Of a stretch of DNA of 38,061 nucleotides, positions 11,243-32,819 are shown in pieces. The DNA comes from an uncultured Dehalococcoidales bacterium. GTDB taxonomy: Bacteria > Chloroflexota > Dehalococcoidia > GIF9 > AB-539-J10. The DNA lies in NCBI GenBank assembly GCA_964545665.1, contig CAZJGF010000002.1, positions 1-38,061 on the forward strand. Reading direction: 5' to 3'. Numbering within the stretch: position 1 is the first letter of the stretch; every line of letters begins with the position of its first letter. A program made the position numbers and the translations under genes. The notes beneath the pieces were generated by a model. It ran no database searches. It was not told the origin of the DNA and saw only the letters and a program-made list of their open reading frames with translations.

Positions 11243-11246
11243 ATTG

Positions 11247-11672
11247 TCATCTCCGATATGCTGTTTTACCAGCAAAAGGCCCTAGCTCTTTTATTTTCGC
11301 TGTCATGTCATTGGCTACCTGTGCGAAGTGGTTTGCCTCAGAGGCAGATATCCACTCTAGGCTTACTCGCTCCTCGTCAACCCCCAGTTGCTTCATCATT
11401 TTCTTCAGTATAGCAACACGCCGCGCTGCCTTATAGTTCCCCGTCCTGTAGTGGCAGTCTCCAAAATGGCAGCCGCCAATCAATACTCCATCTGCACCCG
11501 TCTGAAGGGCTGCAAGCACAAAGGTGGGCTCAACCATCCCACTGCACATAACTCGAACCACCATCAGATTGGAGGCATACTGAATACGCAACATACCAGC
11601 TAAATCAGCTCCAGCATAGGCACACCAATTGCATAGAAAGGCGACTATCTTCGGCTTGAAACCGCTCATCAT
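11247..11672 (-). CDS. mvhD: MvhD ([2Fe-2S] hydrogenase/Hdr adaptor subunit), copy 1
   Basis: 141 aa. FLCNWCAYAGADLAG, VMCSGMV, GGCHFGDCHY. GGAGG lies just upstream of the tandem ATGs (the second ATG at 11669 is possibly the real start). Confidence 0.85.
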   Translation of the reverse strand: MMSGFKPKIVAFLCNWCAYAGADLAGMLRIQYASNLMVVRVMCSGMVEPTFVLAALQTGADGVLIGGCHFGDCHYRTGNYKAARRVAILKKMMKQLGVDEERVSLEWISASEANHFAQVANDMTAKIKELGPFAGKTAYRR

Positions 11673-14427: not shown

Positions 14428-14476
14428 GTTACAACTCCTCACATGTTCCCAATAGTTTGCTCATAAGCCCACATAC

Positions 14477-16174: not shown

Positions 16175-16185
16175 TTCGCAACCTC

Positions 16186-17466: not shown

Positions 17467-17490
17467 TATTACCTGTTACCTCCGTCGCTC

Positions 17491-17925
17491 TCATAATAGG
17501 GCCTTTCCCAAGCGACTTGGCCCCAACTTTCTTACCTGCTCGGCAAACCGGTTAGTTACCTCAGCAAACCTCTGCCCTTCTGATGCTGAAACCCAGGCTA
17601 GCATAAACCTTTCCGGTTCCAGTCCCAGCGTTTCCACCGTTTTCTCCAAAAGAGCAAACCTACGGCGAGCATAGTAATTTCCCTCTCGGTAGTGGCAATC
17701 GCCTGGGTGGCACCCAGCAACAAATACCCCGTCAGCCCCCCGTAGGTATGCAGTAGCCATGAGAGCCGGCTCCACCCTTCCAGAGCACATTACTTTGATA
17801 ATCGAAACGGAACCAGGCACCGTTTGCTTCGTTGCCCCAGCAAGGTCAGCAGCCGCATATGAGCACCAGTTGCAGAGGAACCCAACTATCTTGGGTGTGA
17901 ATTCTCCCTCCATGGATATGCCCAC
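17491..17925 (-). CDS. mvhD: MvhD, copy 2
   Basis: 144 aa. FLCNWCSYAAADLAG, VMCSGRV, AGCHPGDCHY. Start uncertain (GTG at 17925 or ATG at 17913). Confidence 0.85.
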   Translation of the reverse strand: MGISMEGEFTPKIVGFLCNWCSYAAADLAGATKQTVPGSVSIIKVMCSGRVEPALMATAYLRGADGVFVAGCHPGDCHYREGNYYARRRFALLEKTVETLGLEPERFMLAWVSASEGQRFAEVTNRFAEQVRKLGPSRLGKALL

Positions 17926-18176: not shown

Positions 18177-18530
18177 TTAGAAAGAGAAAGTTATGGTGGC
18201 GTCTGATATCGAGGCCAAAAACGTAGTTGCCCCGACAATTTCCACGCCCTCCCTAAAGTCATCGGCTTTAAGGTCCTTGGCATCTAAGGCTAGCTCACAG
18301 ACTAGAATTCGGCCACCCAGATCACGTAGGCCCTGGTATAATTCCACAATGTCCGGCATGCCCTTGGCCTTGATTTTCTCCAACTCGCCTTTCACCATGG
18401 CAGGCGCACCCCCGGGACAGAAAAACACGATCACATCATCGCCGAGGGATGCGGCAGACGAACCGAGAATCATACTTGGGAAAACATTACTGGGTGCGGA
18501 ACCGTTAACTGTAATCGCTACCTTGGCCAT
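18177..18530 (-). CDS. DsrE/DsrF-family (DsrE-like) small sulfur-relay protein
   Basis: 117 aa with size and pattern of DsrE-like proteins (MAKVAITVNG..., FFCPGGAP, ILVCELAL). GGAGG SD. 17 nt upstream of tusA. Confidence 0.6.
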   Translation of the reverse strand: MAKVAITVNGSAPSNVFPSMILGSSAASLGDDVIVFFCPGGAPAMVKGELEKIKAKGMPDIVELYQGLRDLGGRILVCELALDAKDLKADDFREGVEIVGATTFLASISDATITFSF

Positions 18531-18634: not shown

Positions 18635-19066
18635 TCAGAGCCCATTTCGCCTCCTATTAAGTGGGCTGGGGCCAAGTCCCCTTACCGTTTCAGTGAAGCT
18701 CCTGACTGTCTCAGCGAACTTTGGTCCTTCTGAAGCCCCTATCCATTCCAGTCTCAGTCTCTCAGGTTGGATCCCCACCGCCCCAAGGAAAGGCTTCATG
18801 GCCACAAACCTTCTACTGGTGCTCAGGTTACCCTTCATATAATGACAGTCGCCAGGATGACAGCCGGCAACTAGAACACCATCCGCCCCGGCAGCAAACG
18901 CCTTAAATATTAACATGTCGCTGACTCTGCCGGAACACATCACCCTTACCGTCCTCAAGTTTGCCGGATACTGCATCCGTGAGGTACCGGCCAGGTCCGC
19001 AGCGGCATAGGCGCACCAGTTGCAGCAAAAGCCAATGATCACGGGCTCAAAGTCATCCCGGTTCAC
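18635..19066 (-). CDS. mvhD: MvhD, copy 3
   Basis: 143 aa. FCCNWCAYAAADLAG, VMCSGRV, AGCHPGDCHY. GTG start with GGAGG 8 nt upstream. Overlaps the upstream hdrA stop by 14 nt. Confidence 0.85.
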   Translation of the reverse strand: MNRDDFEPVIIGFCCNWCAYAAADLAGTSRMQYPANLRTVRVMCSGRVSDMLIFKAFAAGADGVLVAGCHPGDCHYMKGNLSTSRRFVAMKPFLGAVGIQPERLRLEWIGASEGPKFAETVRSFTETVRGLGPSPLNRRRNGL

Positions 19067-20780
19067 CTATCACGCCTCCTTTCGACTCAACAAACGCTTC
19101 ATTATACCACGGTGCCTCAAGTTGCGCCATAATCTCCTCATTCCTGAAATGATTCATAGTAACGGCACCAGAAGGGCAAGCGGCTCCACAAACTCCACAA
19201 CCCTTACATTGAGCCACGGTGACCCGTGCTACTCTTTTGCCATCTTTGGGCACGAGTTCCATGGCTTCAAATGGGCAAAGAGAAACGCACGTGCCACATC
19301 CTGAGCAGATATCCTCATTAACCGAGGAAGTTATGGCTTCAGGCCTTACATAGCCTGTTCTCAATGGCCCCGCTGCTTTAGAGGCGGCTGCGTAAGCCTG
19401 AGAAATTCCTTCACTCACATCCGTGGGCCACTTTGCAGAGCCACAGATGTAAATACCATCCATAGCAAATTCCACAGGCCGGAGTTTCAAATGTGCTTCC
19501 AGTAAGAAACCAAACTCGTCTAACGAAACTCTAAGCATCTTGGATATTCCCTGGTTATCTTCGCGAGGGATAAGAGGCGTGGTGAGAACAAGCATATCGC
19601 AGGAAAGCTCTAGCTCCGTCTTACGTAGCTCATGGTATACCCTTATTTTCTCAACCTTCCCATTCCCAATGACTTCAGGAGGCCTTTCCAAGCTGTATCT
19701 AATGAATCTAACCCCCCGCTCCATAGCCCCTCGATAGTAATTCTCAAAATCTACACCATAAGTCATAAGGTCACGGTGCAATATCCAGACTTTCGCCCCG
19801 GGGTTTGATTCTTTTATAAGAAAAGCATTCTTAATTGCATTCATGCAGCAGATTCTGCTGCAGTAAGTTCTCTCTGGAACGCGAGCCCCAACACAGTTAA
19901 TCATTACCACGTTCTTGCCCACGGCCTCTCCGTTTTTCATCCGCTCCTCTAGCTCCAGTTGAGTGAGAACGTCAGGCATTTCACCATAGCCGTATTGACC
20001 TATTGGCTTTAATTCCTGAGCTCCAATGGCTACTATGATGGTGCCTACGTTGAACTTACTCTCCTTTCCGTCTTGATCCACAGTGACGTCGAAGTTCCCT
20101 ATGAATCCAGCCACCTCTTTAACCTTAGAAGAAAGATAGGTTTTGATCTTAGAATGATTTTCAACTTTTTCAGCGATTGGATTGGTCAACTTTGTTGCCT
20201 CTTCATTTGTGGGGTAAAGTTTATGAACATTTCGGAGGATCCCCCCAAGCTGTGATTGCTTTTCCACCAAATGGACATCGAACCCTTGCTGTGCCAAATT
20301 CAAGGCGGCACTCATACCTACAACTCCGCCGCCAATCACTAAGGCTGAAGGGGCTACCTTGATCTCCACCTCCTCCAGTGGCTCAAGTAATCTTGCCTTC
20401 GCAACCCCCATTCTGATGAGGTCTTTAGCCTTTTCCGTAGCCTTCTCTGGCTCATTCATATGAACCCAGCTACATTGATCCCTTATATTGACAAACTCAA
20501 AAAGGTATTTGTTTAAGCCCGCTGCTTCACAGGCAGACCTGAAGAGCGGCTCATGGGTTCTAGGTGTGCAAGAGGCGACTATAACACGGTTCAAGCTATA
20601 CTCTTGAATTCCCTTCTTAATCGCTGATATCCCTTCTTCAGAACAGGTATATAGATTATGCTCAGCATGCACCACATTGGGCAGTCCCTTTACATACTCA
20701 ACAACCTCTGGGACATCGACATATGCCCCGATATTCCTGCCACAATGACAGACAAAGACACCAATGCGAGGCTCGTCCAT
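19053..20780 (-). CDS. hdrA: HdrA-like flavoprotein, same subtype as 14477-16174 (N-domain + FAD fold + C-terminal ferredoxin, no inserted ferredoxin)
   Basis: 575 aa. IGVFVCHCGRNIG, ALVIGGGVVGMSAA, INCVGARVPERTYCSRICC, CSGCGTCVSLCP...CKGCGVCGAACP. GGAGG SD. Confidence 0.8.
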   Translation of the reverse strand: MDEPRIGVFVCHCGRNIGAYVDVPEVVEYVKGLPNVVHAEHNLYTCSEEGISAIKKGIQEYSLNRVIVASCTPRTHEPLFRSACEAAGLNKYLFEFVNIRDQCSWVHMNEPEKATEKAKDLIRMGVAKARLLEPLEEVEIKVAPSALVIGGGVVGMSAALNLAQQGFDVHLVEKQSQLGGILRNVHKLYPTNEEATKLTNPIAEKVENHSKIKTYLSSKVKEVAGFIGNFDVTVDQDGKESKFNVGTIIVAIGAQELKPIGQYGYGEMPDVLTQLELEERMKNGEAVGKNVVMINCVGARVPERTYCSRICCMNAIKNAFLIKESNPGAKVWILHRDLMTYGVDFENYYRGAMERGVRFIRYSLERPPEVIGNGKVEKIRVYHELRKTELELSCDMLVLTTPLIPREDNQGISKMLRVSLDEFGFLLEAHLKLRPVEFAMDGIYICGSAKWPTDVSEGISQAYAAASKAAGPLRTGYVRPEAITSSVNEDICSGCGTCVSLCPFEAMELVPKDGKRVARVTVAQCKGCGVCGAACPSGAVTMNHFRNEEIMAQLEAPWYNEAFVESKGGVIGEPG

Positions 20781-20781
20781 T

Positions 20782-22209
20782 TCACCCTCCTCCTGCTATA
20801 ACTTCCGCTACCCTGCCTGCCGCTCCTGACGCCTGGGTTACAGAATCAGGTATATCTCGTGGACTGTGGACATAGCCACAAGCAAAGATGCCGGGCTTTG
20901 TAGTATCCAGCGGTTGCGAAAGCTTATCTGGAGTCCTCACAAAGCCATTTTCGTCCAACTCTATTCCTAGTATTTCTGCTAACTCTTTGGTGATTCGGGG
21001 GACCATCGCTTGCGCCAGAACCACCAGTTCTGCCTCAAATCTTTTTATTCCCCCGGTGGTGGTATCCTCATACCAAATAACAGGGTTATCATTCTCGGAG
21101 TTGACTTCAATCCTGCCAGGACGCCCCCTGATATACGTCACGTTATATTCCTGTTTAGCCCTAACGATATATTCCTGAAATCTCTTGCCTACAGCCCTCA
21201 TGTCCATATAGAGAATTGTGGACTTCGTTCCTGGCTCATGTTCATATGCCATCATGGCTTCCTTGGTGGCATGCATGCAGCAGACGCTGGAACAATATGC
21301 TTTGTTCCTAAGATCGCGGGAGCCAACGCATTGGATGAAGGCTATATTGTGAGGGATTTTCCCATCTGAAGGGCGCTTAAGTGCTCCAAAAGTAGGACCT
21401 GATGCCGCAGTCAGTCTCTCGTATTCTATGGCAGTAATGACATTCTTTATCTTTCCATAGCCATATTCTTCCATTTGTGAGATGTCGTAGAAATCTAAGC
21501 CGGTAGCAACTATTATGGCGTCAACGTCGCGATCCAGGACCTGATCAGTCATGTCATGAACAATTGCCTTCGCTTCACAAGCGTTTTCACACCCCTTACA
21601 TTCAAGCTTCTCTGTGAGTCTCAAGCAGTGATTGGCGTCTCTGACGTTTTTCTTAGGCACTGCTTGAGGGAAAGGTAGATAGATTGCCTTCCTTGGAGAT
21701 AAACCAAGGTTAAACTCGTCGGGCACCAGGATAGGGCAAACATTTATCCTTTTGATAGCATCCTTTTGGCACTTTTCTATGCATTTCCAGCAACCAGTGC
21801 AATCCAAGCCATCGTATATCGGCTTCTCACAGTTACATTCTTCCGCTTGTTCCGTAGAACAGGTTACGCCTATGGAAACCAAGCCATCTCTCCTAAGAAC
21901 ACCAAGTTCTTCAAGTTTATCTAAAGCCCTGTCGTCACATCCTCTGGAGACAACTCCAAACCTTTTCTCAGGCCACTTATCCTTAATTTTACGAACGAAA
22001 GTTGCCAGGTTATATCGTGGCTCAAGTTCCAGCTCCTTAAGCTCCTCCTTTTGGGTGAAGAGATAAGGGCCTACATGTCCCCATCTTCTTCGAAGCCCAA
22101 TGATGCCATCGTAACCGTGGTCTAGAATTTCCTCGGCTGCGGCTATTATTCCCCCCTTATCCAGAATCCTCTCTGCTTCCCCTACTATTCTTTCTCCCTT
22201 CTCAGCCAT
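20782..22209 (-). CDS. Chimera: N-terminal half of a FlxB/AsrA-type protein fused to the C-terminal half of HdrA (inserted ferredoxin onward)
   Basis: 475 aa. The first ~130 aa (FGVVSRGCDDRALDKLEELGVLRRDGLVSIGVTC) parallel the N-termini of ORFs 12171-13277 and 13270-14427. They are followed by CTGCWKCIEKC, CKGCENACEAKAI, ATGLDFYD, IQCVGSRDLRNKAYCSSVCC, GIFACGYVHSPRDIPD. There is no N-terminal GxGxxG FAD motif. Confidence 0.7.
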   Translation of the reverse strand: MAEKGERIVGEAERILDKGGIIAAAEEILDHGYDGIIGLRRRWGHVGPYLFTQKEELKELELEPRYNLATFVRKIKDKWPEKRFGVVSRGCDDRALDKLEELGVLRRDGLVSIGVTCSTEQAEECNCEKPIYDGLDCTGCWKCIEKCQKDAIKRINVCPILVPDEFNLGLSPRKAIYLPFPQAVPKKNVRDANHCLRLTEKLECKGCENACEAKAIVHDMTDQVLDRDVDAIIVATGLDFYDISQMEEYGYGKIKNVITAIEYERLTAASGPTFGALKRPSDGKIPHNIAFIQCVGSRDLRNKAYCSSVCCMHATKEAMMAYEHEPGTKSTILYMDMRAVGKRFQEYIVRAKQEYNVTYIRGRPGRIEVNSENDNPVIWYEDTTTGGIKRFEAELVVLAQAMVPRITKELAEILGIELDENGFVRTPDKLSQPLDTTKPGIFACGYVHSPRDIPDSVTQASGAAGRVAEVIAGGG

Positions 22210-24253
22210 GCTTGTCCCCCTTATAGATTTTCACAGCGCAAACTTTGAACTCAGGGATCTTGGCTTCAGGGTCAAGATTTCTGCTGGTAAGCTCATTGGC
22301 GGCACACTCAGCAAAGTGGAAAGGTATAAATACCACCCCAGGGGAAACTCGATCGGTAACGAAAGCCTTTATCTCAATCTCACCTCGCCGTGATTTCACC
22401 TGTACCTTTTCTCCTTGCACTATAGAGAGTCTCGCCGCGTCTTCAGGATTAAGTTCCACAAAGCCTGTAGAGGCTTCCCTTTCTAAGGCAGGGACTCTGC
22501 GAGTCATTGTCCCAGTATGAAATTGAAACATTACTCTGCCCGTGGTTAGAATGAAAGGATATTCCTCGTCAGGTAGCTCAGCGGGCTGTTCATAATCAAT
22601 GGCAAAGAAGCGTCCTTTTCCCCTGGCGAAGATTTCTTCATGAAGCAATTTGGTGCCGGGGTGTTCTTTGGACGGGCATGGCCAAGCTAACACCTCACCG
22701 CTATCCAATCGCTCGTAGGAAATGCCCCCATAGCTAGGGGTAAGATTCACGATTTCCTCCATAATGGCTTGAGGCGACTCATAATTGAATTGGGTGCTTC
22801 CCATTCTTCTGGCAAGCTCAGTGATTATGACCCAGTCAGGCTTGGAATCACCAATAGGCCCTATTGCCTTCCTTCCCCTTTGGACCCTTCTATCTGTTGC
22901 GGTAAAAGTCCCCTCTTTCTCAGCAAAGGAACAGGCAGGCAGCACCACATGGGCAAATTCGGCTGTATCAGAGAGGAAGCAATCCTGTACCACCAAGAAA
23001 TCAAGTTCACTTAGTGCTTTTCTCACGTGGTTTACATCAGGATCGGAAAGCACAGGATTTTCCCCCATTATATACATCGCCTTAAGCGATCCTTCTAGAG
23101 CAGCATCGATCATTTCGGTTACCGTGAGCCCTGGCTCTTGAGGCAATTCAACACCCCAAGCTTTTTCAAATTTGCCTCTGCTGGCTTCATCCCGAACTGA
23201 TTGATAGCCTGAGTAAACATTTGGCAGAGCACCCATGTCGCAGGCACCCTGAACATTGTTTTGTCCGCGCAGCGGATTCACCCCGGTTGACTTGCGGCCA
23301 ACGTTCCCAGTAAGCATCGCCAGATTGGCGCAAGATTCGACATTATCGGTACCGGTGGTATGTTGTGTGATACCCATAGCATATAGGATGCTTGCTTTTT
23401 CAGCTTCCCCATACCATCGAGCTGCCTTCTCCAGTGCAGCTCGGTCGACCCCCGTTATCTGGCAAACCTTTTCAGGCGAGTATTCTCCAACCTTCCTTTT
23501 GAATTCCTCGAACCCTTCAGTACGCCCAGCGATGAAATCATTATCAGCCAAATTCCAAGAAAGAATGAGGTTCATTATGCCATTAAGCAGGCAAACATCT
23601 GTTCCCGGCCTGTGCTGAAGATGGACGTCAGCAAACTCGACCAGTGGTATGCGGCGTGGGTCAGCCACAATCAGCTTGGCTCCCCTTTCCTTCGCCCGTA
23701 GAACCCTTGAGCTTACAAGAGGGTGCTGCTCCATGGTATTGCTTCCTATCACGAAAATACAGCCCGCTCCTTCTATTTCCGGAATGCTATTGGTCATTGC
23801 TCCACTACCAAAGGAGTTAACTAAGCCTAGCACTGTAGAGGCATGACAAAGTCGAGCACAATGATCAACGTTATTTGTGCCAATAACTGCCCGTGCGAAT
23901 TTCATCATGAGGAAATTTTCCTCATTGGTACACTTGGCAGACGAAAGGATACCTATGGAATCAGCTCCTTGCAGTTGCTTTATCTCGCTCAACCTCCCGC
24001 TCACAATTTCTAAGGCCTCATCCCAGCTTGTCTCTTCAAACTTACCATTTCTTCTTACCAAGGGTGATTTCAGCCGATCACGGTGGTAAATGAAGCCTGC
24101 TGCATTCCTTCCTTTGATACAGAGTTGGCCCCCGCTTACCTCGTCGGTTTTGCAGGGAACCACCCCAGTTATTTCACCGTCCAGAACCTCGAGGTAAAAC
24201 TGACAGCCACAGCCACAAAAAGGGCAAACGGTTAATACCAAGTCACAATTCAC
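22202..24253 (-). CDS. fdhA: Formate dehydrogenase catalytic subunit (Mo/W-bisPGD), cytoplasmic, Cys-type
   Basis: 683 aa. N-terminal [4Fe-4S] motif CPFCGCGCQF...C. Active-site region VDHCARLCHASTV has Cys (TGT, 23846-23848) where Sec-type enzymes have U. No signal peptide. GTG start with a 4-nt overlap with the upstream gene. Confidence 0.9.
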   Translation of the reverse strand: MNCDLVLTVCPFCGCGCQFYLEVLDGEITGVVPCKTDEVSGGQLCIKGRNAAGFIYHRDRLKSPLVRRNGKFEETSWDEALEIVSGRLSEIKQLQGADSIGILSSAKCTNEENFLMMKFARAVIGTNNVDHCARLCHASTVLGLVNSFGSGAMTNSIPEIEGAGCIFVIGSNTMEQHPLVSSRVLRAKERGAKLIVADPRRIPLVEFADVHLQHRPGTDVCLLNGIMNLILSWNLADNDFIAGRTEGFEEFKRKVGEYSPEKVCQITGVDRAALEKAARWYGEAEKASILYAMGITQHTTGTDNVESCANLAMLTGNVGRKSTGVNPLRGQNNVQGACDMGALPNVYSGYQSVRDEASRGKFEKAWGVELPQEPGLTVTEMIDAALEGSLKAMYIMGENPVLSDPDVNHVRKALSELDFLVVQDCFLSDTAEFAHVVLPACSFAEKEGTFTATDRRVQRGRKAIGPIGDSKPDWVIITELARRMGSTQFNYESPQAIMEEIVNLTPSYGGISYERLDSGEVLAWPCPSKEHPGTKLLHEEIFARGKGRFFAIDYEQPAELPDEEYPFILTTGRVMFQFHTGTMTRRVPALEREASTGFVELNPEDAARLSIVQGEKVQVKSRRGEIEIKAFVTDRVSPGVVFIPFHFAECAANELTSRNLDPEAKIPEFKVCAVKIYKGDKHG

Positions 24254-25224
24254 TTGCTTATCTCGGTCCCAACAACGGGCCGCTCCTTCACTCGCTCTAC
24301 AAGCTTGTTTTTTGTCTCTGGATCTAGACCTGGAATGATTTCAAAAATTGACTCAGGGGGTTGACGCTGCATAAGGTGATGGATAGTTCTGAGGGGTATG
24401 TCCACAGGACAAGTTTCTTCACACATGCCGCAGTTAATGCAGCTATCGCCAATGCGGTAAGCTCTTATTATGTGAAACAGGGGCACAGCGGGAGGTATTT
24501 CGCCGGGGGCAATCCACTCCGGGTCTTCCAGCTCAGTCTCACCGTAAATCCATACGGGGCAGACATCACAGCAGCCAAAGCACTTTATGCACTTGCTGAG
24601 TTCCTTCTGCCAGAAGTCTGCTCGTGACTCTTCGTCCATCAGGGCCACCCGCTGGGCCAATATCTCAGGCTCCCTTCCTTCTCGTTCCTCAGGAGGAAGT
24701 TCAACAAATCTTCGCCTCTCGAAGGCAACATTGGTCATGGCATGCCTTTCCTTGTTTTCCTCAACACAGGCCTGGGTGCATTCTCCGCACTGGACGCAAC
24801 TTGTCTCGTCTATTTTGATTCGGTCAACCCATATTTCCCCTTCAAACTCCTTCGAGCCATCTAACTCGGTCTGAGTGCACTCCCCGCACCCGGTGCATTT
24901 ATCCCAATCAACGTGTGTTGCCTTCCTCTTGACTTTGACATGGAAATTTCCTTCCTCTCCTGATACTCCCTCCACCTCGGAATAGGTCAAAAGCTCTATG
25001 TTAGGATGCTGGCTTGCCTCTATCATCTTGGGGGCAAGAATACACATAGCACAGTCATTAGTGGGGAAGGTCTTATCTAGCTGTGCCATCCTCCCCCCAA
25101 TACTGGGAGTCTTTTCCACCAAATACACCTTGAACCCCATATTAGCCAGATCGAGAGAAGCTTGAATCCCAGCTATCCCACCGCCAATCACCAAGACCGA
25201 TTTATGTTCATTTTCCCGGTTCAC
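24250..25224 (-). CDS. Chimera: N-terminal (FAD-binding) half of HdrA fused to the C-terminal Cys-rich half of a FlxB/AsrA-type protein
   Basis: 324 aa. VLVIGGGIAGIQASLDLANMGFKVYLVEK, TFPTNDCAMCILAPK, KCTGCGEC, then CVQCGECTQAC, CIKCFGCCDVCPVW, LFHIIRAYRIGDSCINCGMCEETCPVDIP. The latter part parallels CINCHNCMRVCPICYC...LFFHIGRMLHMSLSCVSCGMCEDACP of ORF 13270-14427. GTG start with a 4-nt overlap. Confidence 0.7.
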   Translation of the reverse strand: MNRENEHKSVLVIGGGIAGIQASLDLANMGFKVYLVEKTPSIGGRMAQLDKTFPTNDCAMCILAPKMIEASQHPNIELLTYSEVEGVSGEEGNFHVKVKRKATHVDWDKCTGCGECTQTELDGSKEFEGEIWVDRIKIDETSCVQCGECTQACVEENKERHAMTNVAFERRRFVELPPEEREGREPEILAQRVALMDEESRADFWQKELSKCIKCFGCCDVCPVWIYGETELEDPEWIAPGEIPPAVPLFHIIRAYRIGDSCINCGMCEETCPVDIPLRTIHHLMQRQPPESIFEIIPGLDPETKNKLVERVKERPVVGTEISK

Positions 25225-26375
25225 TTGTCGCCTCCTAAGGCGTTTGCTACCAGATTTACCAAATCCATAACTTCAATTTTTGGCATTACCCGCTTCTCTT
25301 CCCCTTTGTCTACCATAGCGCATCTGAAATGGATTTGACATTTGGGACAAGAGGTTATAAGCATCTGCGCTCCAGTCGAAGCTGCCTCAGACAACCTCTC
25401 TGTCCTTATCATGTTGGAATATGAGTCGCAATTGGTAAAGGCGCTGGTTCCACAACAAATAGAATCCCATCCGCTATGTTCCATCTCAAGAAACTCTACC
25501 CCTGGAATAGAACCCAGCACCTTTCGGGGTGCATCATAGACACCTAGATGTCTTCCTAATCTACAAGGGTCTTGATAAGTTACCTTCTTATCAATCCAGT
25601 TAAACTTAGCCTCCCCTTTCTCTATCTTCTCAGCTAAGAATTCAGAGATATGTTGTAACTCGCAATCCACACTAAACCCATGATTGGGGTAGTCTAGCTT
25701 GAATGTCCGATAGCCCTCAGGACAGGAAAAGATTATCTTTTTCACCCCAGCCTCTTTTATTAGTTTTGTGTTATGTTCGGCTAAGCTCTTGAAGGTCTCC
25801 ACATCCCCGGTCCAAAGCACATCATGCCCACAGCATTTCTCATCTGGAAGCAATTTGGGCTCTATTCCGAAAAAGTTTAAGATTCTTAAGCTTGCCTCAG
25901 TGATATCAAGAGCCCTAAACTCAATATCCTCAAAGACAGGTTCAAAATATGGAGCGCATCCAACCCAGAACAGGACATCGGAGTCGTCAGAGATACGATA
26001 TTCTTTGGATAGCCATTCCAATCTTCTCTGCTTAATGTCAGGACTTGTCATAAGTCGTGCCAAGGATTGCAGTTGCCCCGAGTGGGCATAAATTCCATGC
26101 TGTCCATTATCTTGGGCTATAGCTCGGGCTTGGCGAATGAAAATAGGAAAATCAACATCGCAGGGGCATCTCTGCTGGCAGGTATAGCAAGTTAAGCAAG
26201 AAAAGAGTTTTTGGTTGAAGACCAATACATCCTCAAATCCCAAAAGGGCGTCTTCAATTATCGCCCGCGGAGAGAAAGATGGATCATATCTGGCAACAGG
26301 GCATACACTAGTACACTTGCCGCATTCCAAGCAGTAATAAGTCTTGGTTTCCTGAATAATGTCTTCTAAATTCAA
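25221..26375 (-). CDS. HdrD-like protein (fused HdrC-type 2x[4Fe-4S] + HdrB-type double CCG domain)
   Basis: 384 aa. CLECGKCTSVCP, CLTCYTCQQRCP, then CCG motifs EKCCGHD and SICCGTSAF with SCPKCQ. TTG start with a 4-nt overlap with mvhD. Confidence 0.75.
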   Translation of the reverse strand: MNLEDIIQETKTYYCLECGKCTSVCPVARYDPSFSPRAIIEDALLGFEDVLVFNQKLFSCLTCYTCQQRCPCDVDFPIFIRQARAIAQDNGQHGIYAHSGQLQSLARLMTSPDIKQRRLEWLSKEYRISDDSDVLFWVGCAPYFEPVFEDIEFRALDITEASLRILNFFGIEPKLLPDEKCCGHDVLWTGDVETFKSLAEHNTKLIKEAGVKKIIFSCPEGYRTFKLDYPNHGFSVDCELQHISEFLAEKIEKGEAKFNWIDKKVTYQDPCRLGRHLGVYDAPRKVLGSIPGVEFLEMEHSGWDSICCGTSAFTNCDSYSNMIRTERLSEAASTGAQMLITSCPKCQIHFRCAMVDKGEEKRVMPKIEVMDLVNLVANALGGDK

Positions 26376-26830
26376 ACCGCTACTTCTTCCCTCCTTAAAG
26401 CTGAAAAGGGTGAGGGGCCCAGTTTCTTAAGTTGGTCGACAAATTCCTCAACTACTCTGGCAAACACTGTTCCCTCAGAAGTAGATATCATTTCACGCCT
26501 CAGCCTTTCATCCTCTAAGCCAAGGGTGTGGACTAGCCTCTTTAGCTTGGCGAACATGGCATCACACTTTACCGGCCCATCAATGTAATGGCAGTCGGTG
26601 TATTTACACCCAGCGACTATAACTCCATCAGCTCCTCTTTCAAAGGCTCTAAGGACATAGTCAGGATTTATCATTCCACTGCACATTACCCTTGCAATAT
26701 AAACATTGGGAGGGTATTGGACCCGGCTTGTGCCGGCCAAATCAGCTGCAGCGTAAGTACACCAGTTGCAGGCAAAAGCAATAATCTGCGGCTCAAATTC
26801 AGCCACGGTAAGCCTCCAGTAAGCCATCAA
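26372..26830 (-). CDS. mvhD: MvhD, copy 4
   Basis: 152 aa. FACNWCTYAAADLAG, VMCSGMI, AGCKYTDCHY. Start is TTG at 26830 or ATG at 26827; it overlaps the hdrL 3' end by ~30 nt. Confidence 0.85.
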   Translation of the reverse strand: MMAYWRLTVAEFEPQIIAFACNWCTYAAADLAGTSRVQYPPNVYIARVMCSGMINPDYVLRAFERGADGVIVAGCKYTDCHYIDGPVKCDAMFAKLKRLVHTLGLEDERLRREMISTSEGTVFARVVEEFVDQLKKLGPSPFSALRREEVAV

Positions 26831-29800
26831 CCAAGCTATCTATTTCCTGCATATTGAAATGCCTGATTGACATTGCTCCCGTCGGGCAAACAACGGCACA
26901 CGCCCCACATCCTTTACACAGGGCTTCATTTACGCTGGAGACCAAAAAAGTCCCATCCTTGCTAATAATCGTGGGAGCGTGGAAGGTGCAAATTTCCTCA
27001 CAGCGTCCACATCCATGACAAATGCTTTCATCCACTTGGGCTATGGCTGCCTCAGTGGTTACCTTGCCTCTGCTTATTAACGACAAAGCTTTGGATGCTG
27101 CGGCAGAAGCCTGGGCCACAGTATCAGGGATGTCCTTCGGTCCGGCACAGCAGCCAGCGATGAAAACTCCGTCTGTGGGCGTGTTTACCGGAGCAAGCTT
27201 GGGATGCGTTTCCAAGAAGAAGCCATCGGCTCTCTGACCTATGGTAAAACGACTGGCGATATCGGCTGCATCAGACCGAGCTTGCAGAGCAGCACAGAGG
27301 ATAACCATATCCACCGGGACACGGATCATCCTCCCCAATAAGGTATCCTCAGCCAAGGCAACTAATTTCCCTCTCTCCTCTTCACTTATGGCCTGATCGG
27401 TTATCTTTGCCACCTTGCCTCGGATAAAATTGACTCCCATTTCCGAAACGTGCTGGTAGAATTCCTCATAGGCTTCTCCAAAGCACCTCATGTCAATATA
27501 GAATTCATATACATCGGCCTTGGTAAACTCTTTTATCAGCTCTGCATACTTGAGACCATACATGCAGCAAACCCTGGAGCAGTACTCATGGTAGTTTTTG
27601 TCTCGACTGCCGACACAGTGTACTATGGCTACACTTCCCGGTTCTCTGCCATCCTTAAGTTGAATTCGCCCCTGAGTTGGCCCGCCAGCACACGTTATCC
27701 TCTCAAATTCAAGTCCGGTTAGAACATTATCATACTTCTTATACCCGTATTGAGTCATGACACTGGGATCAAACTGGTCATAGCCAGTAGCCAGAATGAT
27801 TGAGCCTACCTCTACCTCAGCAAACTCCTCTTCCATGCCATGGTTAATCGCCCCTTGCTCACAGACCTTCAAGCACTCCAAACATTCCGAGCATACGCCA
27901 CAGTTGAGACAGCGTTTAGCCTCCTCTACGGCTGTTTCTTCGTCAAAGCCTTGTTCAACCTCAGCAAAGGAGCTTTTTCTCTGGTCAAGGCTAAGCAGCG
28001 GCATGCTGGCTCTTGCCTTTGGTTTGACTCCTTCCGTCGATACCTGTTCTACCTTTTTGGACGCTATTTGTCTTCCCTCGGTTAGGCTAATACCTTTCAG
28101 ATATCGATCGATAGAAATAGCTGCCTCTTTGCCGGCGGCGATGGCTGCAATTACGTCACCGGGGCCGGAGACCGCGTCGCCACCGGCGAAAACGCCATGG
28201 ATGTTTGTTTGCAAGGTAGGAGGGGCGACTTCAAGGGTGCCCCAACCAGTATAGTCCAATTCTTTAGGCAGCATTGTCTTATCCACAGCCTGACCAACAG
28301 CGATGATAAGATTGTCCACATCCATGGTGAACTCTGAGCCTTTGATGGGTACCGGACGGTTACGGCCGCTAGCATCAGGCGTGCCCAACTCCATCCTGAT
28401 ACACTCAATAGCTGTCAATTGACCATCCTCGGATAGGATTTTAACTGGCCCCGCCAGGAAGTGGATCTTGACTCCTTCTCGCTTGGCTTCCTCAACCTCG
28501 GTCCCGATAGCAGGCATTTCAAGCTGAGAGCGGCGATAGACTACAGTCACCTCTTTAGCCCCAAGGCGTGAAGCTAATCTAGCAGCATCGATAGCGGCGT
28601 TGCCGCCACCAATGACTACCACCCGCTCCCCTAAACTAATCTTCACGCCAGAATTTGCCATTCTGAGAAAGTCGAGGGCATGGATTACTCCGCCTGTTTC
28701 TTCACCAGAGACTCCTGTCTTTTGGCTTTCCTGACAACCGTTGCCTAGTAAAATGGCTGTATATCCCTGGTTGAAGATCTCGCCGATGTCTTTAACTGGC
28801 GTATTTGTCCTGATCTCAACCCCCAGTTCTTGTATGTAATTTATCTCGTTATCCACTATTTCTTTGGGCAATCTGTATGCGGGGATGCCATACCTTAGCA
28901 GGCCACCTGGCTGAGGAAGTGCCTCGAACACAGTGACTGCATAACCCTCCCTAACCAAATCGTAAGCACAGGCAAGTCCGGCAGGGCCAGAGCCAACAAT
29001 AGCCACTTTACCCTCTTTTGTCCTTTCAACTGGAGCTGCTCTTTCCCTCCTGAGCCTCAGCTCATAATCAGCAATGAAGCGCTTCAGGCTTCGAATGGCG
29101 ATGGATTCGTCAAACCGCCCTCGCTCGCAGTCCAGTTCACAAGGATGCGTACAGACCCGTCCAACAACCCCGGCAAAAGGCATTGTCCTTCTGACTACTT
29201 CAAGGGCTTCTTTGAACTTGCCCTGGGAAATAAGTGCGACATAGCCTTGAGCATTGACTCCAGCGGGACAAGCAATGCGGCACGGCGCGGTGCCTCTCTT
29301 GTCAATGGCAAAAGCGGCAGGGACAGCTTGGGGGAGGGGAAGATAAGCTGCCTTTCTCATGTGCAGGCCCATTTCAAACTCGTCAGGCACCTCAACAGGA
29401 CATACTTTGGCGCATTCCCCACATGAGTTACATTTAACAACGTCCACATACCTGGGCTTCTTCCTCACTTTGACTTTGAAATTGCCGATATAGCCTGAAA
29501 CCTCTTCTACTTCGCTAGAGGTCATTAATTCGATGTTAGGGTGATGACCGACGTCGGTCATCTTAGGTGTGAGAATGCATTCCGAACAGTCCAAAGTAGG
29601 GAAAGTCCTGTCAAGCTGAATCATATGTCCACCAATGGATGGTTCCCGTTCCACTACATAGACTTTCTTGCCCCCATCAGCGATATCTAAAGCAGCCTGA
29701 ATTCCAGCGATGCCGCCGCCCACAACCAAGACATTAGGATTCACTGGAACTTCCTTAATCTCCAGAGGCTCATGCCAGTAAACGCGCCTTATTGCAGCGC

Positions 29801-30167
29801 GTACAAGAGCCTTGGCCTTCTCTGTAGCTCGCTTCTTGTCTGCAGCATGGGGCCAAGAACAGTGCTCCCTGATATTGGCATGCTCATATAAGTAAGGATT
29901 TAACCCGGCATCTTGGCAAGCTTTGCGGAACGTAGGTTCATGCATCCTTGGTGAGCAGGAAGCAACCACAACTCGATTGAGCCCTAGCTCTTTGATATCA
30001 TTTTTGATGAGATCCTGCCCGGGATCCGAGCACATATACCTGTAGTCACGCGAAATCACTACATTAGGCAAGGTTGTCGCATATTTGACCACCTCCTCAC
30101 AATCCACTGTACCGGCAATATTTAATCCACAGTGGCAAACGTATACTCCGATCTTTACCTCTTCCAT
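26799..30167 (-). CDS. hdrL: Large HdrA-type protein (HdrL-like): complete HdrA with a GltD/NfnB/SudA-type NAD(P)H:FAD module inserted in the inserted-ferredoxin domain
   Basis: 1122 aa. HdrA parts: IGVYVCHCGLNIA, VLVVGGGIAGIQAA, TFPTLDCSECILTPK, CNSCGECAKVCP, [insert], CLNCGVCSECLECLKVC, VHCVGSRDKNYHEYCSRVCC, C-terminal CHGCGRCEEIC...CKGCGACAVVCP. The insert (aa ~290-750, nt ~27918-29300) reads CRIACPAG...GRVCTHPCELDCERG, KVAIVGSGPAGLACAYDL, RVVVIGGGNAAIDAAR, GVFAGGDAVSGPGDVIAAIAAGKEAA. Confidence 0.8.
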   Translation of the reverse strand: MEEVKIGVYVCHCGLNIAGTVDCEEVVKYATTLPNVVISRDYRYMCSDPGQDLIKNDIKELGLNRVVVASCSPRMHEPTFRKACQDAGLNPYLYEHANIREHCSWPHAADKKRATEKAKALVRAAIRRVYWHEPLEIKEVPVNPNVLVVGGGIAGIQAALDIADGGKKVYVVEREPSIGGHMIQLDRTFPTLDCSECILTPKMTDVGHHPNIELMTSSEVEEVSGYIGNFKVKVRKKPRYVDVVKCNSCGECAKVCPVEVPDEFEMGLHMRKAAYLPLPQAVPAAFAIDKRGTAPCRIACPAGVNAQGYVALISQGKFKEALEVVRRTMPFAGVVGRVCTHPCELDCERGRFDESIAIRSLKRFIADYELRLRRERAAPVERTKEGKVAIVGSGPAGLACAYDLVREGYAVTVFEALPQPGGLLRYGIPAYRLPKEIVDNEINYIQELGVEIRTNTPVKDIGEIFNQGYTAILLGNGCQESQKTGVSGEETGGVIHALDFLRMANSGVKISLGERVVVIGGGNAAIDAARLASRLGAKEVTVVYRRSQLEMPAIGTEVEEAKREGVKIHFLAGPVKILSEDGQLTAIECIRMELGTPDASGRNRPVPIKGSEFTMDVDNLIIAVGQAVDKTMLPKELDYTGWGTLEVAPPTLQTNIHGVFAGGDAVSGPGDVIAAIAAGKEAAISIDRYLKGISLTEGRQIASKKVEQVSTEGVKPKARASMPLLSLDQRKSSFAEVEQGFDEETAVEEAKRCLNCGVCSECLECLKVCEQGAINHGMEEEFAEVEVGSIILATGYDQFDPSVMTQYGYKKYDNVLTGLEFERITCAGGPTQGRIQLKDGREPGSVAIVHCVGSRDKNYHEYCSRVCCMYGLKYAELIKEFTKADVYEFYIDMRCFGEAYEEFYQHVSEMGVNFIRGKVAKITDQAISEEERGKLVALAEDTLLGRMIRVPVDMVILCAALQARSDAADIASRFTIGQRADGFFLETHPKLAPVNTPTDGVFIAGCCAGPKDIPDTVAQASAAASKALSLISRGKVTTEAAIAQVDESICHGCGRCEEICTFHAPTIISKDGTFLVSSVNEALCKGCGACAVVCPTGAMSIRHFNMQEIDSLVDGLLEAYRG

Positions 30168-32761: not shown

Positions 32762-32819
32762 TTCTTCCACCTCCTTTCACCCTTTGGTGTCGCAGTCTTT
32801 CAGCCAACTCCTTTCGTTT

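What the first reader, a model, noticed from the sequence alone, without database searches (positions are those of the whole stretch)
20782..25224. Reciprocal HdrA / FlxB-type chimeras bracketing a cytoplasmic formate dehydrogenase
ORF 24250-25224 starts as the FAD-binding half of HdrA (VLVIGGGIAGIQAS..., TFPTNDCAMC, KCTGCGEC). After ~115 aa it switches to a Cys-rich tail (CIKCFGCCDVCPVW ... LFHIIRAYRIGDSCINCGMCEETCP). By eye this tail parallels the C-terminal halves of the two FlxB/C (AsrA/HydB-beta)-like proteins in this window (CINCHNCMRVCPICYC ... LFFHIGRMLHMSLSCVSCGMCEDACP). ORF 20782-22209 is the mirror image. Its first ~130 aa (FGVVSRGCDDRALDKLEELG...IGVTC) parallel the N-terminal halves of those proteins (AAVMRPCEARATVELAKLG...VTVDC). 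The rest is the C-terminal half of HdrA, from the inserted ferredoxin through IQCVGSRD..CSSVCC to the end. The two chimeras flank fdhA with 4-nt and 8-nt overlaps. One HdrA and one FlxB-type protein therefore appear to be encoded as swapped halves on either side of FdhA. This would hard-wire formate oxidation to a bifurcating flavin. Methanogens achieve the same coupling with separate FdhAB, MvhD and HdrABC subunits. I do not recognise this architecture as described.
Basis: partly seen in the sequence, partly recalled or inferred. Interest (0 to 1): 0.85.

Follow-up and report, generated by a model that had tools for sequence, protein, structure and literature searches.

The report
Swapped-half HdrA/FdhB proteins around FdhA
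Two genes flanking a cytoplasmic formate dehydrogenase each encode half of the electron-bifurcating flavoprotein HdrA fused to half of the iron-sulfur subunit FdhB; this swapped design recurs in several bacterial phyla, I found no published description of it, and it probably wires formate/CO2 chemistry directly to the HdrA flavin.

Summary

- **ORF 24250-25224 (chimN):** HdrA residues 146-303 (FAD Rossmann part plus a shortened inserted ferredoxin), followed by the C-terminal 2x[4Fe-4S] domain of FdhB.
- **ORF 20782-22209 (chimC):** the N-terminal 4-Cys domain of FdhB, followed by HdrA residues 242-568.
- **Gene order:** the two ORFs overlap fdhA by 4 and 8 nt.
- **Partner family:** it is best described as a flavin-less FdhB ("mini-FdhB"), not FlxB.
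- **Unswapped relatives:** Desulfobacterota loci encode intact HdrA, an intact 263-275 aa mini-FdhB and FdhA side by side. Both breakpoints can be mapped from these.
- **Conservation:** the swapped triad occurs in at least 13 independent contigs binned to Chloroflexota, Desulfobacterota and a Pirellulales genome. All metal-binding Cys and FAD motifs are conserved.
- **Second version:** close relatives of the window carry HdrA halves fused to NuoE-like and NuoG-like domains around a NuoF-like gene.

The most likely reading is a two-piece HdrA and a two-piece FdhB that assemble around FdhA into a hard-wired Fdh-Hdr module. This module would sit inside a larger Hdr/MvhD/HdrD complex. The direction of electron flow is not settled: formate could be the donor, or CO2 the low-potential acceptor. 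Seven literature searches found no description. Verdict: new variant of a known kind.

The parts
24919..25224 (-). chimN residues 1-102: N-terminal part of the HdrA thioredoxin-reductase-like FAD domain. It carries GGGIAGI and TFPTNDCAMC. Cys61 corresponds to HdrA Cys197.
   Evidence: Aligns to 5odc_A 146-247 without gaps. G14/G16/G19, D57, C58 and C61 are invariant in 70 homologues. Position 61 is an in-frame UGA (Sec) in Desulfobacterota homologues.
24757..24918 (-). chimN residues 103-156: shortened copy of the HdrA inserted ferredoxin. It has 7 Cys: C110, C113, C116, C143, C146, C149, C153.
   Evidence: Aligns to 5odc_A 246-303 with a 14-residue deletion. All 7 Cys are invariant.
24307..24627 (-). 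chimN residues 200-306: FdhB C-terminal 2x[4Fe-4S] domain (B_C). Ligands are C212, C215, C218, C222 and C262, C265, C268, C272.
   Evidence: PDB FdhB 9t1s_M 277-375 E 5e-28, 7bkb_E E 3e-27. hhalign E 2e-29. Foldseek hits 7bkb_E and 8rvu_E. Colinear with mini-FdhB.
22202..24253 (-). FdhA: cytoplasmic Mo/W-bisPGD formate dehydrogenase catalytic subunit. It has Cys at the position that is Sec in homologues, and no Tat signal.
   Evidence: TIGR01591 924 bits (cut-off 666). Pfam Molybdop_Fe4S4 + Molybdopterin + Molydop_binding. Best PDB hit is F420-type FdhA 9t1s_L, 799 bits, full length. Homologues have an in-frame stop at residue 136.
21820..22209 (-). chimC residues 1-130: FdhB N-terminal domain (B_N) with 4 invariant Cys (C91, C117, C125, C127). 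It probably binds one [4Fe-4S].
   Evidence: hhalign P 98.1%, E 7e-14 against the FrhB/FdhB-like family. Top 3 PDB hits are FdhB 31-130. Invariant Cys. pLDDT 81-93 for residues 21-110. Colinear with mini-FdhB.
21565..21819 (-). chimC residues 131-215: complete HdrA inserted ferredoxin domain (2x[4Fe-4S]). Its first Cys lies 10 residues after the last B_N Cys.
   Evidence: Aligns to 5odc_A/9sfi_A 242-313. C137, C140, C143, C147 are nearly invariant and C195, C204, C207, C211 are invariant.
20782..21564 (-). chimC residues 216-475: C-terminal part of the HdrA FAD domain. It includes the CVGSRD...CSSVCC [4Fe-4S] site and the C-terminal FAD motif GIFACGY..PRDIP.
   Evidence: 5odc_A rmsd 2.6 A over 323 columns. 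phmmer E 8e-78. C294, C306, C310, C311 invariant and G440, G445, D452 nearly invariant.
19053..20780 (-). Complementary HdrA (575 aa). It has the N-terminal Fe-S domain and the C-terminal ferredoxin, but lacks the inserted ferredoxin and Cys197. It is the likely heterodimer partner and is fused to chimC in most other genomes.
   Evidence: Sequence. BLAST segments. Fusions of 1031-1111 aa in L003, L005, L007, L009-L016. Complementarity logic from PMC9012536.
18635..19066 (-). MvhD-like [2Fe-2S] protein downstream of the partner HdrA.
   Evidence: Sequence. The same position is held by FlpD/MvhD genes in L001, L003, L010, L015, L016.
25221..26375 (-). HdrD-like protein (fused HdrC ferredoxin + 2 CCG domains). 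It is the predicted disulfide-reducing subunit and lies immediately upstream of chimN.
   Evidence: Pfam CCG 2.2e-26 + Fer4_8. It holds the same position in L001, L005, L015, L016, L086, L087.
26372..30167 (-). MvhD (26372-26830) and HdrL (26799-30167). HdrL is an HdrA with a GltD/NfnB-like NAD(P)H module inserted in the inserted ferredoxin. They lie upstream in the same gene string.
   Evidence: Pfam Fer4_20 + Pyr_redox_2 inside HdrA. BLAST segments.

Best explanation
**What the genes encode.** The three overlapping genes encode one formate dehydrogenase catalytic subunit (FdhA) and two polypeptides. Each polypeptide carries part of HdrA and part of a flavin-less FdhB.
- chimN = HdrA N-part + short inserted ferredoxin + FdhB C-terminal di-cluster domain.
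- chimC = FdhB N-terminal 4-Cys domain + inserted ferredoxin + HdrA C-part.

**Proposed assembly (inferred).**
- The two HdrA parts come together into one FAD-binding thioredoxin-reductase fold.
- The two FdhB parts come together into one three-cluster Fe-S relay docked on FdhA.
- This gives an unbroken cluster chain: Mo/W site, FdhA [4Fe-4S], two B_C clusters, the B_N cluster, the inserted-ferredoxin clusters, then the HdrA FAD region.
- The split HdrA pairs with the complementary HdrA encoded next (19053-20780). chimN Cys61 would complete that partner's N-terminal cluster.
- MvhD and the HdrD-like CCG protein complete the complex.

**Proposed function (inferred).** The complex couples the formate/CO2 couple to the bifurcating flavin. 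My preferred direction, held only weakly, is that of methanogen Fdh-MvhD-HdrABC. In that direction formate oxidation drives reduction of a disulfide (a DsrC-like or other thiol carrier) and of a low-potential acceptor.

**Shown versus inferred.** Shown: domain composition, breakpoints, conservation, complementarity and the existence of unswapped relatives. Inferred: physical reassembly, cofactor content, partners and direction.

**Possible origin (inferred).** One Campbell-type crossover between a circular fdhB-fdhA segment and hdrA would give exactly the observed order and orientation.
For: - **Domain mapping:**
- **Complementary coverage of one HdrA chain:** 146-303 from chimN and 242-568 from chimC. 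The Foldseek top hits for both models are HdrA.
- **Constraint on both halves:** FAD motifs and all Fe-S ligands are invariant or nearly so in 57- and 70-sequence alignments.
- **Cluster proximity:** the last B_N Cys (C127) and the first inserted-ferredoxin Cys (C137) are 10 residues apart.
- **Translational coupling:** the genes overlap by 4 and 8 nt.
- **Conserved triad:** found in L001, L003, L005-L012, L014-L016. L013 has the two chimeras adjacent without fdhA, so the pair travels as a unit.
- **Unswapped relatives:** intact HdrA + mini-FdhB, followed by FdhA in all but the truncated L079.
- **FdhA type:** it is of the FdhB-partnered F420-type.
- **Parallel design:** the same bracket exists with a NuoE/NuoF/NuoG-N module in L086 and L087. 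Their flanking genes are 64-94% identical to the window's.
- **Precedent for the insertion site:** HdrL in the window shows the inserted-ferredoxin site tolerates a whole redox module (PMC9012536).
Against: - No multimer model, proteomic data or biochemical data exist for reassembly.
- Single-chain models are only moderate: mean pLDDT 75-76, and the ferredoxin regions fall below 50.
- chimN's ferredoxin copy has only 7 Cys.
- The duplicated inserted ferredoxin is not explained by a simple split or a single crossover.
- The FdhB relay is attached at the inserted-ferredoxin port. In methanogen HdrA that port is the low-potential exit, not the MvhD / C-terminal-ferredoxin entry used by methanogen Fdh (structure-based knowledge; PMC9012536). 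This argues against a simple 'formate as donor' reading.
- The disulfide substrate is unknown.
- All carriers found are uncultured MAGs.
Confidence: 0.7

Rival explanations
1. The assembly is the same, but FdhA works as a CO2 reductase on the low-potential arm. [quoted passage not shown] The low-potential electrons leave through the inserted ferredoxin and the FdhB relay to reduce CO2 to formate. This would be the first step of the Wood-Ljungdahl methyl branch. It is analogous to Hdr feeding Fmd/Fwd through a polyferredoxin in methanogens.
For: - The FdhB parts are fused exactly at the inserted ferredoxin, which is the ferredoxin-reducing exit in solved HdrA (PMC9012536).
- A canonical entry port (partner HdrA C-terminal ferredoxin + MvhD) is encoded but is not fused to Fdh.
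- MvhA/G, HdrL and FdhB-like genes lie in the same gene string.
- L003 lies next to MetF/MetV-HdrA-MvhD genes of the Wood-Ljungdahl pathway.
Against: - In closely related loci (L086, L087) the same port carries an NADH-type NuoEF module.
- In HdrL the same port carries an NAD(P)H-type GltD module.
- Both are typical donors, so the port may simply be where two-electron donors are attached.
- Many carriers are Desulfobacterota that may run the pathway oxidatively.
- There are no activity data.
Confidence: 0.3
2. The halves do not rebuild HdrA. chimN and chimC would be independent, non-bifurcating Fe-S electron-transfer subunits of a formate dehydrogenase, with vestigial HdrA fragments.
For: - Neither ORF reaches the NCBIfam HdrA cut-offs: 191 and 325 bits against 1100.
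- Single-chain models have low pTM, 0.55-0.56.
Against: - The FAD-binding glycines, the C-terminal FAD motif, Cys61 (= Cys197; Sec in homologues) and the TrxR-domain cluster ligands are invariant across phyla. Such conservation is not expected for vestiges.
- The two fragments cover one HdrA chain exactly.
- They always co-occur.
Confidence: 0.08
3. The finding is an artefact. Either an assembly chimera or pseudogenised fragments are involved, or the 'extra' segments are generic ferredoxin motifs unrelated to FdhB.
For: Pairwise BLAST of the chimC N-terminus against the window paralogues is not significant (E 0.3-3).
Against: - The same architecture occurs in at least 13 independent contigs from different samples and phyla, with intact reading frames.
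- More than 120 and about 40 full-length homologue clusters were found for the two ORFs.
- FdhB-specific profile matches are 13-20 orders of magnitude better than other ferredoxins.
- hhalign gives E 7e-14 and 2e-29.
- The segments are colinear with mini-FdhB.
Confidence: 0.02

Closest known systems
Methanogen FdhAB-MvhD-HdrABC formate-dependent bifurcating complex (solved: 7BKB Methanospirillum hungatei; also 9T1S/9SFI)
   Same: - FdhA of the same type (799 bits to 9t1s_L).
- FdhB-derived Fe-S domains.
- An HdrA flavoprotein.
- MvhD genes and HdrB/C-type CCG domains (HdrD) in the cluster.
   Different: - Here FdhB has no flavin/F420 middle.
- FdhB is cut in two, and each part is covalently fused to a part of a likewise cut HdrA.
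[quoted passage not shown]
- HdrB and HdrC are fused.
- The hosts are bacteria, so the substrate is presumably not CoM-S-S-CoB.
Bacterial 'HdrBCA-MvhD-FdhBA' / hdrA-fdhB-fdhA clusters (Desulfobacula toluolica Tol2, Chloroflexi DscP3: PMC5736913; Desulfobacterium autotrophicum loci V, VI: PMC2702500)
   Same: - The same components and the same mini-FdhB family.
- B_N is 33-37% identical and B_C 42-48% identical to the chimeric segments.
- The same Sec/Cys positions in HdrA and FdhA.
   Different: - There HdrA and mini-FdhB are separate, intact proteins in the order hdrA-(hdrA2)-fdhB-fdhA.
- In the window they are reciprocally recombined and bracket fdhA.
- Those papers do not describe the swapped form.
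HdrL / type III HdrA (HdrA with a GltD/NfnB-like module interrupting the inserted ferredoxin; PMC2702500, PMC9012536, PMC12054007)
   Same: A foreign redox module is placed at the same site of HdrA. One such gene lies in the window at 26799-30167.
   Different: - HdrL is a single polypeptide with a one-domain insert.
- Here the 'insert' is a three-gene cassette and the HdrA chain is broken.
Complementary tandem or fused HdrA pairs of ANME archaea (HdrA5/6, 12/13; PMC9012536)
   Same: [quoted passage not shown]
- Its partner has Cys197 and the inserted ferredoxin.
- The window shows this pattern twice: chimN+chimC with 19053-20780, and 16186-17466 with 14477-16174.
   Different: In the window the Cys197-bearing partner is itself split and fused to FdhB parts.

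Membership tests
HdrA (bifurcating flavoprotein of soluble heterodisulfide reductase) | Thioredoxin-reductase-like FAD domain: N-terminal GxGxxG Rossmann motif and C-terminal G..GD-type motif | tested here: met
   The feature is met only by the two ORFs together. GGGIAGI is in chimN (G14/G16/G19 invariant). GIFACGY..PRDIP is in chimC (G440, G445, D452 nearly invariant). They align to 5odc_A 146-303 and 242-568.
HdrA (bifurcating flavoprotein of soluble heterodisulfide reductase) | [4Fe-4S] in the FAD domain (CxGSRD...C..CC) leading to HdrC/B | tested here: met
   C294, C306, C310 and C311 of chimC are invariant in 57 sequences.
HdrA (bifurcating flavoprotein of soluble heterodisulfide reductase) | Inserted ferredoxin domain with two [4Fe-4S] | tested here: met
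   A complete copy is in chimC residues 131-215. A second, shortened 7-Cys copy is in chimN residues 103-156.
HdrA (bifurcating flavoprotein of soluble heterodisulfide reductase) | [quoted passage not shown] | tested here: not met
   The protein is encoded in two polypeptides. Neither the N-terminal domain nor the C-terminal ferredoxin is present in the window versions; both are present in neighbouring HdrA 19053-20780. NCBIfam HdrA2 scores are 191 and 325 bits against a cut-off of 1100.
HdrA (bifurcating flavoprotein of soluble heterodisulfide reductase) | Binds FAD and bifurcates electrons | not testable with these tools
   This needs purified protein.
FdhB/FrhB family (beta subunits of F420-dependent formate dehydrogenase/hydrogenase) | N-terminal alpha/beta domain with conserved Cys (..PCD/GCD.., ..NCG..) | tested here: met
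   chimC 16-118: hhalign P 98.1%, E 7e-14. The top 3 PDB hits are FdhB 31-130. Pfam PF04432 gives only weak hits (best E 0.024, 4 of 17 members).
FdhB/FrhB family (beta subunits of F420-dependent formate dehydrogenase/hydrogenase) | Middle flavin/F420-binding region (most of Pfam FrhB_FdhB_C) | tested here: not met
   FrhB-like residues about 120-240 have no counterpart in either chimera. Mini-FdhB has only a 30-40 aa linker there. That this region binds FAD/F420 is from my knowledge of FrhB structures.
FdhB/FrhB family (beta subunits of F420-dependent formate dehydrogenase/hydrogenase) | C-terminal 2x[4Fe-4S] domain that docks on FdhA | tested here: met
   chimN 200-306 against FdhB 277-381: E 5e-28 and 3e-27. 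hhalign E 2e-29. 8 Cys are invariant. Docking on FdhA itself was not tested.
FlxB/FlxC (AsrA/HydB-beta-like) proteins of Flx-Hdr | AsrA-type Fer4_22 di-cluster domain; encoded with FlxA (NAD(P)H flavoprotein) and FlxD | tested here: inconclusive
   PF17179 scores 21.4 bits in chimN, below the cut-off of 27. There is no AsrA (TIGR02910) hit for either chimera. No flxA lies next to them in the window. FlxB/C-like genes next to the triad in other loci are only about 22-25% identical to the window FdhB-like ORFs. No reference FlxB sequence was compared directly.
Formate dehydrogenase alpha subunit (FdhA/FdhF, TIGR01591) | Curated family score, N-terminal [4Fe-4S] motif, Sec/Cys Mo/W ligand | tested here: met
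   924 bits against a cut-off of 666. Pfam gives the three expected domains. Cys136 lies where homologues carry an in-frame UGA.
Methanogen-type Fdh-MvhD-HdrABC complex | Separate FdhA, flavin-containing FdhB, MvhD, HdrA, HdrB and HdrC; CoM-S-S-CoB as acceptor | tested here: not met
   FdhB is flavin-less and split. HdrA is split. HdrB and HdrC are fused as HdrD. The acceptor cannot be tested here.

The most novel reading that the evidence does not exclude
The split HdrA is a general docking platform. Whole multi-subunit redox modules (FdhB_C|FdhA|FdhB_N, or NuoE|NuoF|NuoG_N) have been integrated as cassettes into the hdrA reading frame at the inserted-ferredoxin site. This creates covalently wired complexes.

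In the Fdh version the catalytic subunit would sit on the low-potential arm. The enzyme would then be a bifurcation-driven CO2 reductase: H2 or NAD(P)H plus a disulfide, giving formate. That would be a previously unrecognised entry to the Wood-Ljungdahl pathway in uncultured Chloroflexota and Desulfobacterota.
Probability: 0.25. Interest if true: 0.8.

Novelty: new variant of a known kind. Interest (0 to 1): 0.65.

Why it matters
- **An open question becomes testable.** Bacterial Hdr-like complexes are abundant in anaerobes, but almost none has been characterised biochemically, and it is unclear where electrons enter and leave HdrA outside methanogens. Here the covalent fusions dictate which Fe-S domains must sit next to which. 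The architecture therefore gives a concrete wiring prediction: FdhA, B_C, B_N, inserted ferredoxin, flavin region.
- **A rare evolutionary event can be traced.** This is a reciprocal exchange between two subunits, and the unswapped ancestor-like state is still present in relatives.
- **The design is reused.** A NuoEFG-type module sits in the same bracket, which suggests cassette-like modularity of bifurcating enzymes.
- **Physiological consequence.** If FdhA sits on the low-potential arm, the models of CO2 fixation and formate metabolism for widespread sediment Chloroflexota and Desulfobacterota would change.

Tried and rejected
1. **Pairwise BLAST of the chimC N-terminus** against the window FdhB-like ORFs was not significant (E 0.3-3). 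Profile methods were needed.
2. **My first chimC alignment (A1) mixed true family members with full-length HdrAs.** Its profile spuriously aligned the N-terminal domain to HdrA 134-250. I discarded this and rebuilt a domain-only alignment (A3).
3. **Foldseek of the whole chimC model** returned only HdrA/TrxR hits.
4. **P0176 and other 'GltD + HdrA_C' proteins** looked like a third split type. L085 shows a run of N in the scaffold inside the gene, so they are truncated HdrL calls, not splits.
5. **A natural single-chain fusion** (chimN-FdhA, FdhA-chimC, or HdrA with mini-FdhB inserted) was sought to stand in for a multimer model. None appeared among the best 120 hits of either search. Only chimC-HdrA2 fusions were found.
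6. **A simple inversion between oppositely oriented hdrA and fdhB** was considered as the origin. I rejected it because it would leave chimC on the opposite strand. A Campbell-type integration fits the order and orientation, but it does not explain the duplicated inserted ferredoxin.
7. **Seven literature searches and twelve papers** yielded no description of the swapped form. The Appel et al. 2021 HdrA review is not in the searchable library.
8. **No cultured organism with the swapped triad** was found in the genome scan.

Full report
**Setting.** All relevant genes lie on the minus strand in one tight string. Read 5' to 3', the order is:
- HdrD-like (30186-31334)
- HdrL (26799-30167)
- MvhD (26372-26830)
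- HdrD-like (25221-26375)
- chimN (24250-25224)
- FdhA (22202-24253)
- chimC (20782-22209)
- HdrA (19053-20780)
- MvhD (18635-19066)
- DsrE-like (18177-18530)
- MvhD (17491-17925)
- short HdrA (16186-17466)
- HdrA (14477-16174)
- two FdhB-like genes (13270-14442 and 12171-13343)
- MvhD, MvhG, MvhA (8796-11672)

The closest named relative of chimN is from a Dehalococcoidia MAG, at 85% identity.

**Checking the observation.** chimN overlaps fdhA by GTGA, and fdhA overlaps chimC by ATGGCTGA.

For chimN:
- Residues 10-153 align with solved HdrA (5odc_A 146-303, E 1.4e-48). The alignment has no gap up to residue 112.
- HdrA homology therefore covers the Rossmann part, the TFPTNDCxxC motif and a shortened inserted ferredoxin.
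- After a linker of about 45 residues, residues 200-306 match the C-terminal di-cluster domain of FdhB.
- A 70-sequence family profile hits 9t1s_M 277-375 (E 5e-28), 7bkb_E (3e-27) and 8rvu_E (7e-21). The next ferredoxin-type protein scores 1e-7.
- Against the FdhB-like ORFs of the window, BLASTP gives E 1e-12 and 4e-10.
- hhalign against 113 family representatives gives P 99.8%, E 2e-29.

For chimC:
- Residues 133-474 align with HdrA 242-568 (E 8e-78). The Foldseek rmsd is 2.6 A over 323 columns to 5odc_A.
- The first ~130 residues are not significantly similar to the window paralogues by BLAST (E 0.3-3).
- A domain-only profile (A3) has FdhB residues 31-130 as its three best PDB hits (E 0.0014-0.011).
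- hhalign gives P 98.1%, E 7e-14 for chimC 16-118 against FrhB-like 10-119.
- Family member P0187 links the two by BLAST at E 1.3e-7.
- Four Cys (C91, C117, C125, C127) are invariant, and the domain is confidently folded (pLDDT 81-93 for residues 21-110).

ORF 12171 hits Pfam PF04432 at E 6.6e-12 and PDB FdhB at E 1e-39.

**What is missing and what is duplicated.** Neither chimera contains a counterpart of FrhB-like residues ~120-240. From my knowledge of FrhB/FdhB structures, that region holds the flavin/F420 site. Conversely, HdrA residues 242-303 (the inserted ferredoxin) are present in both chimeras. The copy in chimC is complete; the copy in chimN is shortened and has 7 Cys.

**Comparative evidence.** The triad is conserved.
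- Contigs carrying chimN homologues show CCG protein, chimN-like, FdhA, chimC-like and MvhD in order (L001, L003).
- A scan of one genome per species with the tail profile found full-length matches only in MAGs. They are labelled Chloroflexota, Desulfatiglandales, Desulfobacterales/Desulfobacteraceae (including Eth-SRB2), a Pirellulales bin and a doubtful Woesearchaeota bin.
- In L005-L012 and L014-L016 the order is chimN | FdhA | chimC. chimC is usually fused to a second, complete HdrA (1031-1111 aa).
- In L013 the two chimeras are adjacent without fdhA.
- In Desulfobacterota versions, chimN position 61 and FdhA position 136 are in-frame stops, that is selenocysteine. The window has Cys at both.
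- Position 61 corresponds to HdrA Cys197. According to PMC9012536, this is the ligand donated to the N-terminal cluster of the partner HdrA.

**Unswapped relatives.** This was the most informative result. Partial matches from the same scan are loci in Desulfobacula, Desulfohalobiaceae, Desulfatiglandales, Desulfomonile and others (L019, L020, L027, L035, L037, L079).
- They encode an intact Sec-HdrA, a second HdrA, a 263-275 aa protein and then Sec-FdhA. L079 ends before fdhA.
- The small protein consists of B_N directly followed by B_C.
- An alignment shows chimC 1-136 colinear with its N-half, through C-x-C-(K/E)-K-P.
- chimN 195-306 is colinear with its C-half, from (F/Y)W..F.KC(I/V)KC.
- The junction falls in a 30-40 residue linker.
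- These are the 'FdhB' genes of the hdrA-fdhB-fdhA clusters already noted in D. autotrophicum (PMC2702500) and in D. toluolica and Chloroflexi DscP3 (PMC5736913).

So A_N-A_C plus B_N-B_C exist in some genomes, and A_N-B_C plus B_N-A_C in others, with FdhA alongside in nearly all loci. This is what a reciprocal exchange predicts.

**A second bracket family.** The HdrA_C part of chimC is 76% identical to 504-517 aa proteins whose N-terminus is a NuoG-like 2Fe-2S domain (P0162-P0170).
- Their loci L086 and L087 share flanking genes 64-94% identical to the window's (MvhD, HdrD, partner HdrA).
- Between those flanks they carry [HdrA_N + NuoE-like 2Fe-2S domain] | [NuoF-like, with or without GltD] | [NuoG-N-like + inserted ferredoxin + HdrA_C].
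- The split-HdrA bracket is therefore a reused design, and the enclosed module is exchangeable.
- Together with HdrL, this marks the inserted-ferredoxin site as the place where HdrA accepts foreign redox modules. HdrL is a single chain with a GltD/NfnB-like module at the same site (PMC9012536, PMC12054007).

**How it probably works (inference).**
- The two HdrA parts cover one chain without a gap, and both carry invariant FAD and cluster ligands. I infer that they reassemble into one flavoprotein.
- B_N and B_C would reassemble into a three-cluster relay on FdhA. FdhA is of the FdhB-partnered type.
- Only 10 residues separate the last B_N ligand from the first inserted-ferredoxin ligand. These clusters must therefore be neighbours.
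- The window's chimeras lack the N-terminal Fe-S domain and the C-terminal ferredoxin of HdrA.
- The next gene (19053-20780) has both of those, but lacks the inserted ferredoxin and Cys197. This is the complementary-heterodimer pattern described for ANME HdrA pairs.
- The window repeats that pattern with 16186-17466 and 14477-16174.
- MvhD and the HdrD-like CCG protein would complete a bifurcating unit.

**Direction of electron flow.** This is open.
- By analogy with methanogens, and as proposed for the unswapped bacterial clusters (PMC5736913), formate would be the donor.
- The relay is attached at the port that is the low-potential exit in methanogen HdrA. That favours CO2 reduction by low-potential electrons.
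- However, NADH-type modules occupy the same port in L086, L087 and HdrL. That favours the view that the port is a donor site.
- I weight these readings at roughly 0.45 and 0.30.

**Origin (speculation).** A single crossover between a circular fdhB-fdhA segment, opened in the FdhB linker, and hdrA, opened at the inserted ferredoxin, yields A_N-B_C | fdhA | B_N-A_C. That is the observed order and orientation. It does not explain the duplicated ferredoxin.

**Novelty.** Seven full-text searches and twelve papers turned up related material only:
- unswapped clusters,
- HdrA encoded by colinear adjacent genes,
- HdrL,
- complementary HdrA pairs.

None describes HdrA and FdhB halves exchanged around fdhA, or the NuoE/NuoG analogue. 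Source annotations call these proteins only 'ferredoxin' or 'HdrA-like polyferredoxin'. I rate this a new variant of a known kind (Fdh-Hdr complexes). It is of real interest to specialists in flavin-based bifurcation, but it is not a new class of system.

Noticed in passing
L086 2969-8515 and L087 3136-7542 (close relatives of the window locus): The same operon context holds a different bracketed module: [HdrA_N + NuoE-like 2Fe-2S domain, 290-298 aa] | [NuoF-like, with or without GltD, 643-1055 aa] | [NuoG-N-like Fer2 + inserted ferredoxin + HdrA_C, 504-513 aa]. The HdrA halves are 73-80% identical to the window's chimeras. This suggests cassette exchange inside a split-HdrA scaffold. I found no description of it.
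   Followed up: partly
window 12171-17925: A second Hdr cluster: MvhD, a short HdrA (inserted ferredoxin, no terminal domains), an HdrA with terminal domains but no inserted ferredoxin or Cys197, two tandem full-length FdhB/FrhB-like proteins, then MvhD-MvhG-MvhA. The FdhB-like ORF 12171 matches the FdhB-like subunit of the Methanothermobacter Elp-Hdr complex (8rvu_E) at E 5e-28. The cluster may therefore be an Elp-like or hydrogenase-linked Hdr in a bacterium.
   Followed up: partly
L007-L009, L011, L012, L014 (chimN position 61; FdhA position 136): Desulfobacterota versions of chimN and FdhA have in-frame UGA codons where the window has Cys61 (= HdrA Cys197) and Cys136. These are selenoprotein and Cys variants of the same system. 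Gene callers split or truncate the Sec forms.
   Followed up: partly
L013 6794-10776: The chimN-like and chimC-HdrA2 genes are directly adjacent with no fdhA between them. The two chimeras therefore travel as a pair even when fdhA is elsewhere or absent.
   Followed up: no
window 31742-35060: Two adjacent genes begin with nearly identical response-regulator receiver domains. One (32820-35060, 746 aa) continues into a GltD/NfnB-like pyridine-nucleotide oxidoreductase with a C-terminal di-cluster ferredoxin. The other (31742-32770) continues into a Cys-rich domain with no Pfam match. A receiver domain fused to a redox enzyme is unusual.
   Followed up: partly
window 18177-18530: A small DsrE/DsrE2-like sulfur-carrier gene sits between two MvhD genes inside the Hdr string. 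L001 has a DsrC-like gene upstream of its triad. Both hint that the thiol/disulfide substrate belongs to sulfur-relay or DsrC-type proteins.
   Followed up: no
L003 3171-7462: The triad lies immediately downstream of HdrA-polyferredoxin-MvhD-MetV(DUF5981)-MetF genes. It is followed by MvhD, two FlxB/C-like genes and a FlxA-like gene. This links it to the Wood-Ljungdahl methyl branch and to Flx-type NADH modules.
   Followed up: no
L085 about 5020-5120: A run of N in the scaffold truncates an HdrL-type gene. As a result, database proteins such as P0176 ('GltD + HdrA_C', 793 aa) look like split HdrAs but are assembly artefacts.
   Followed up: yes
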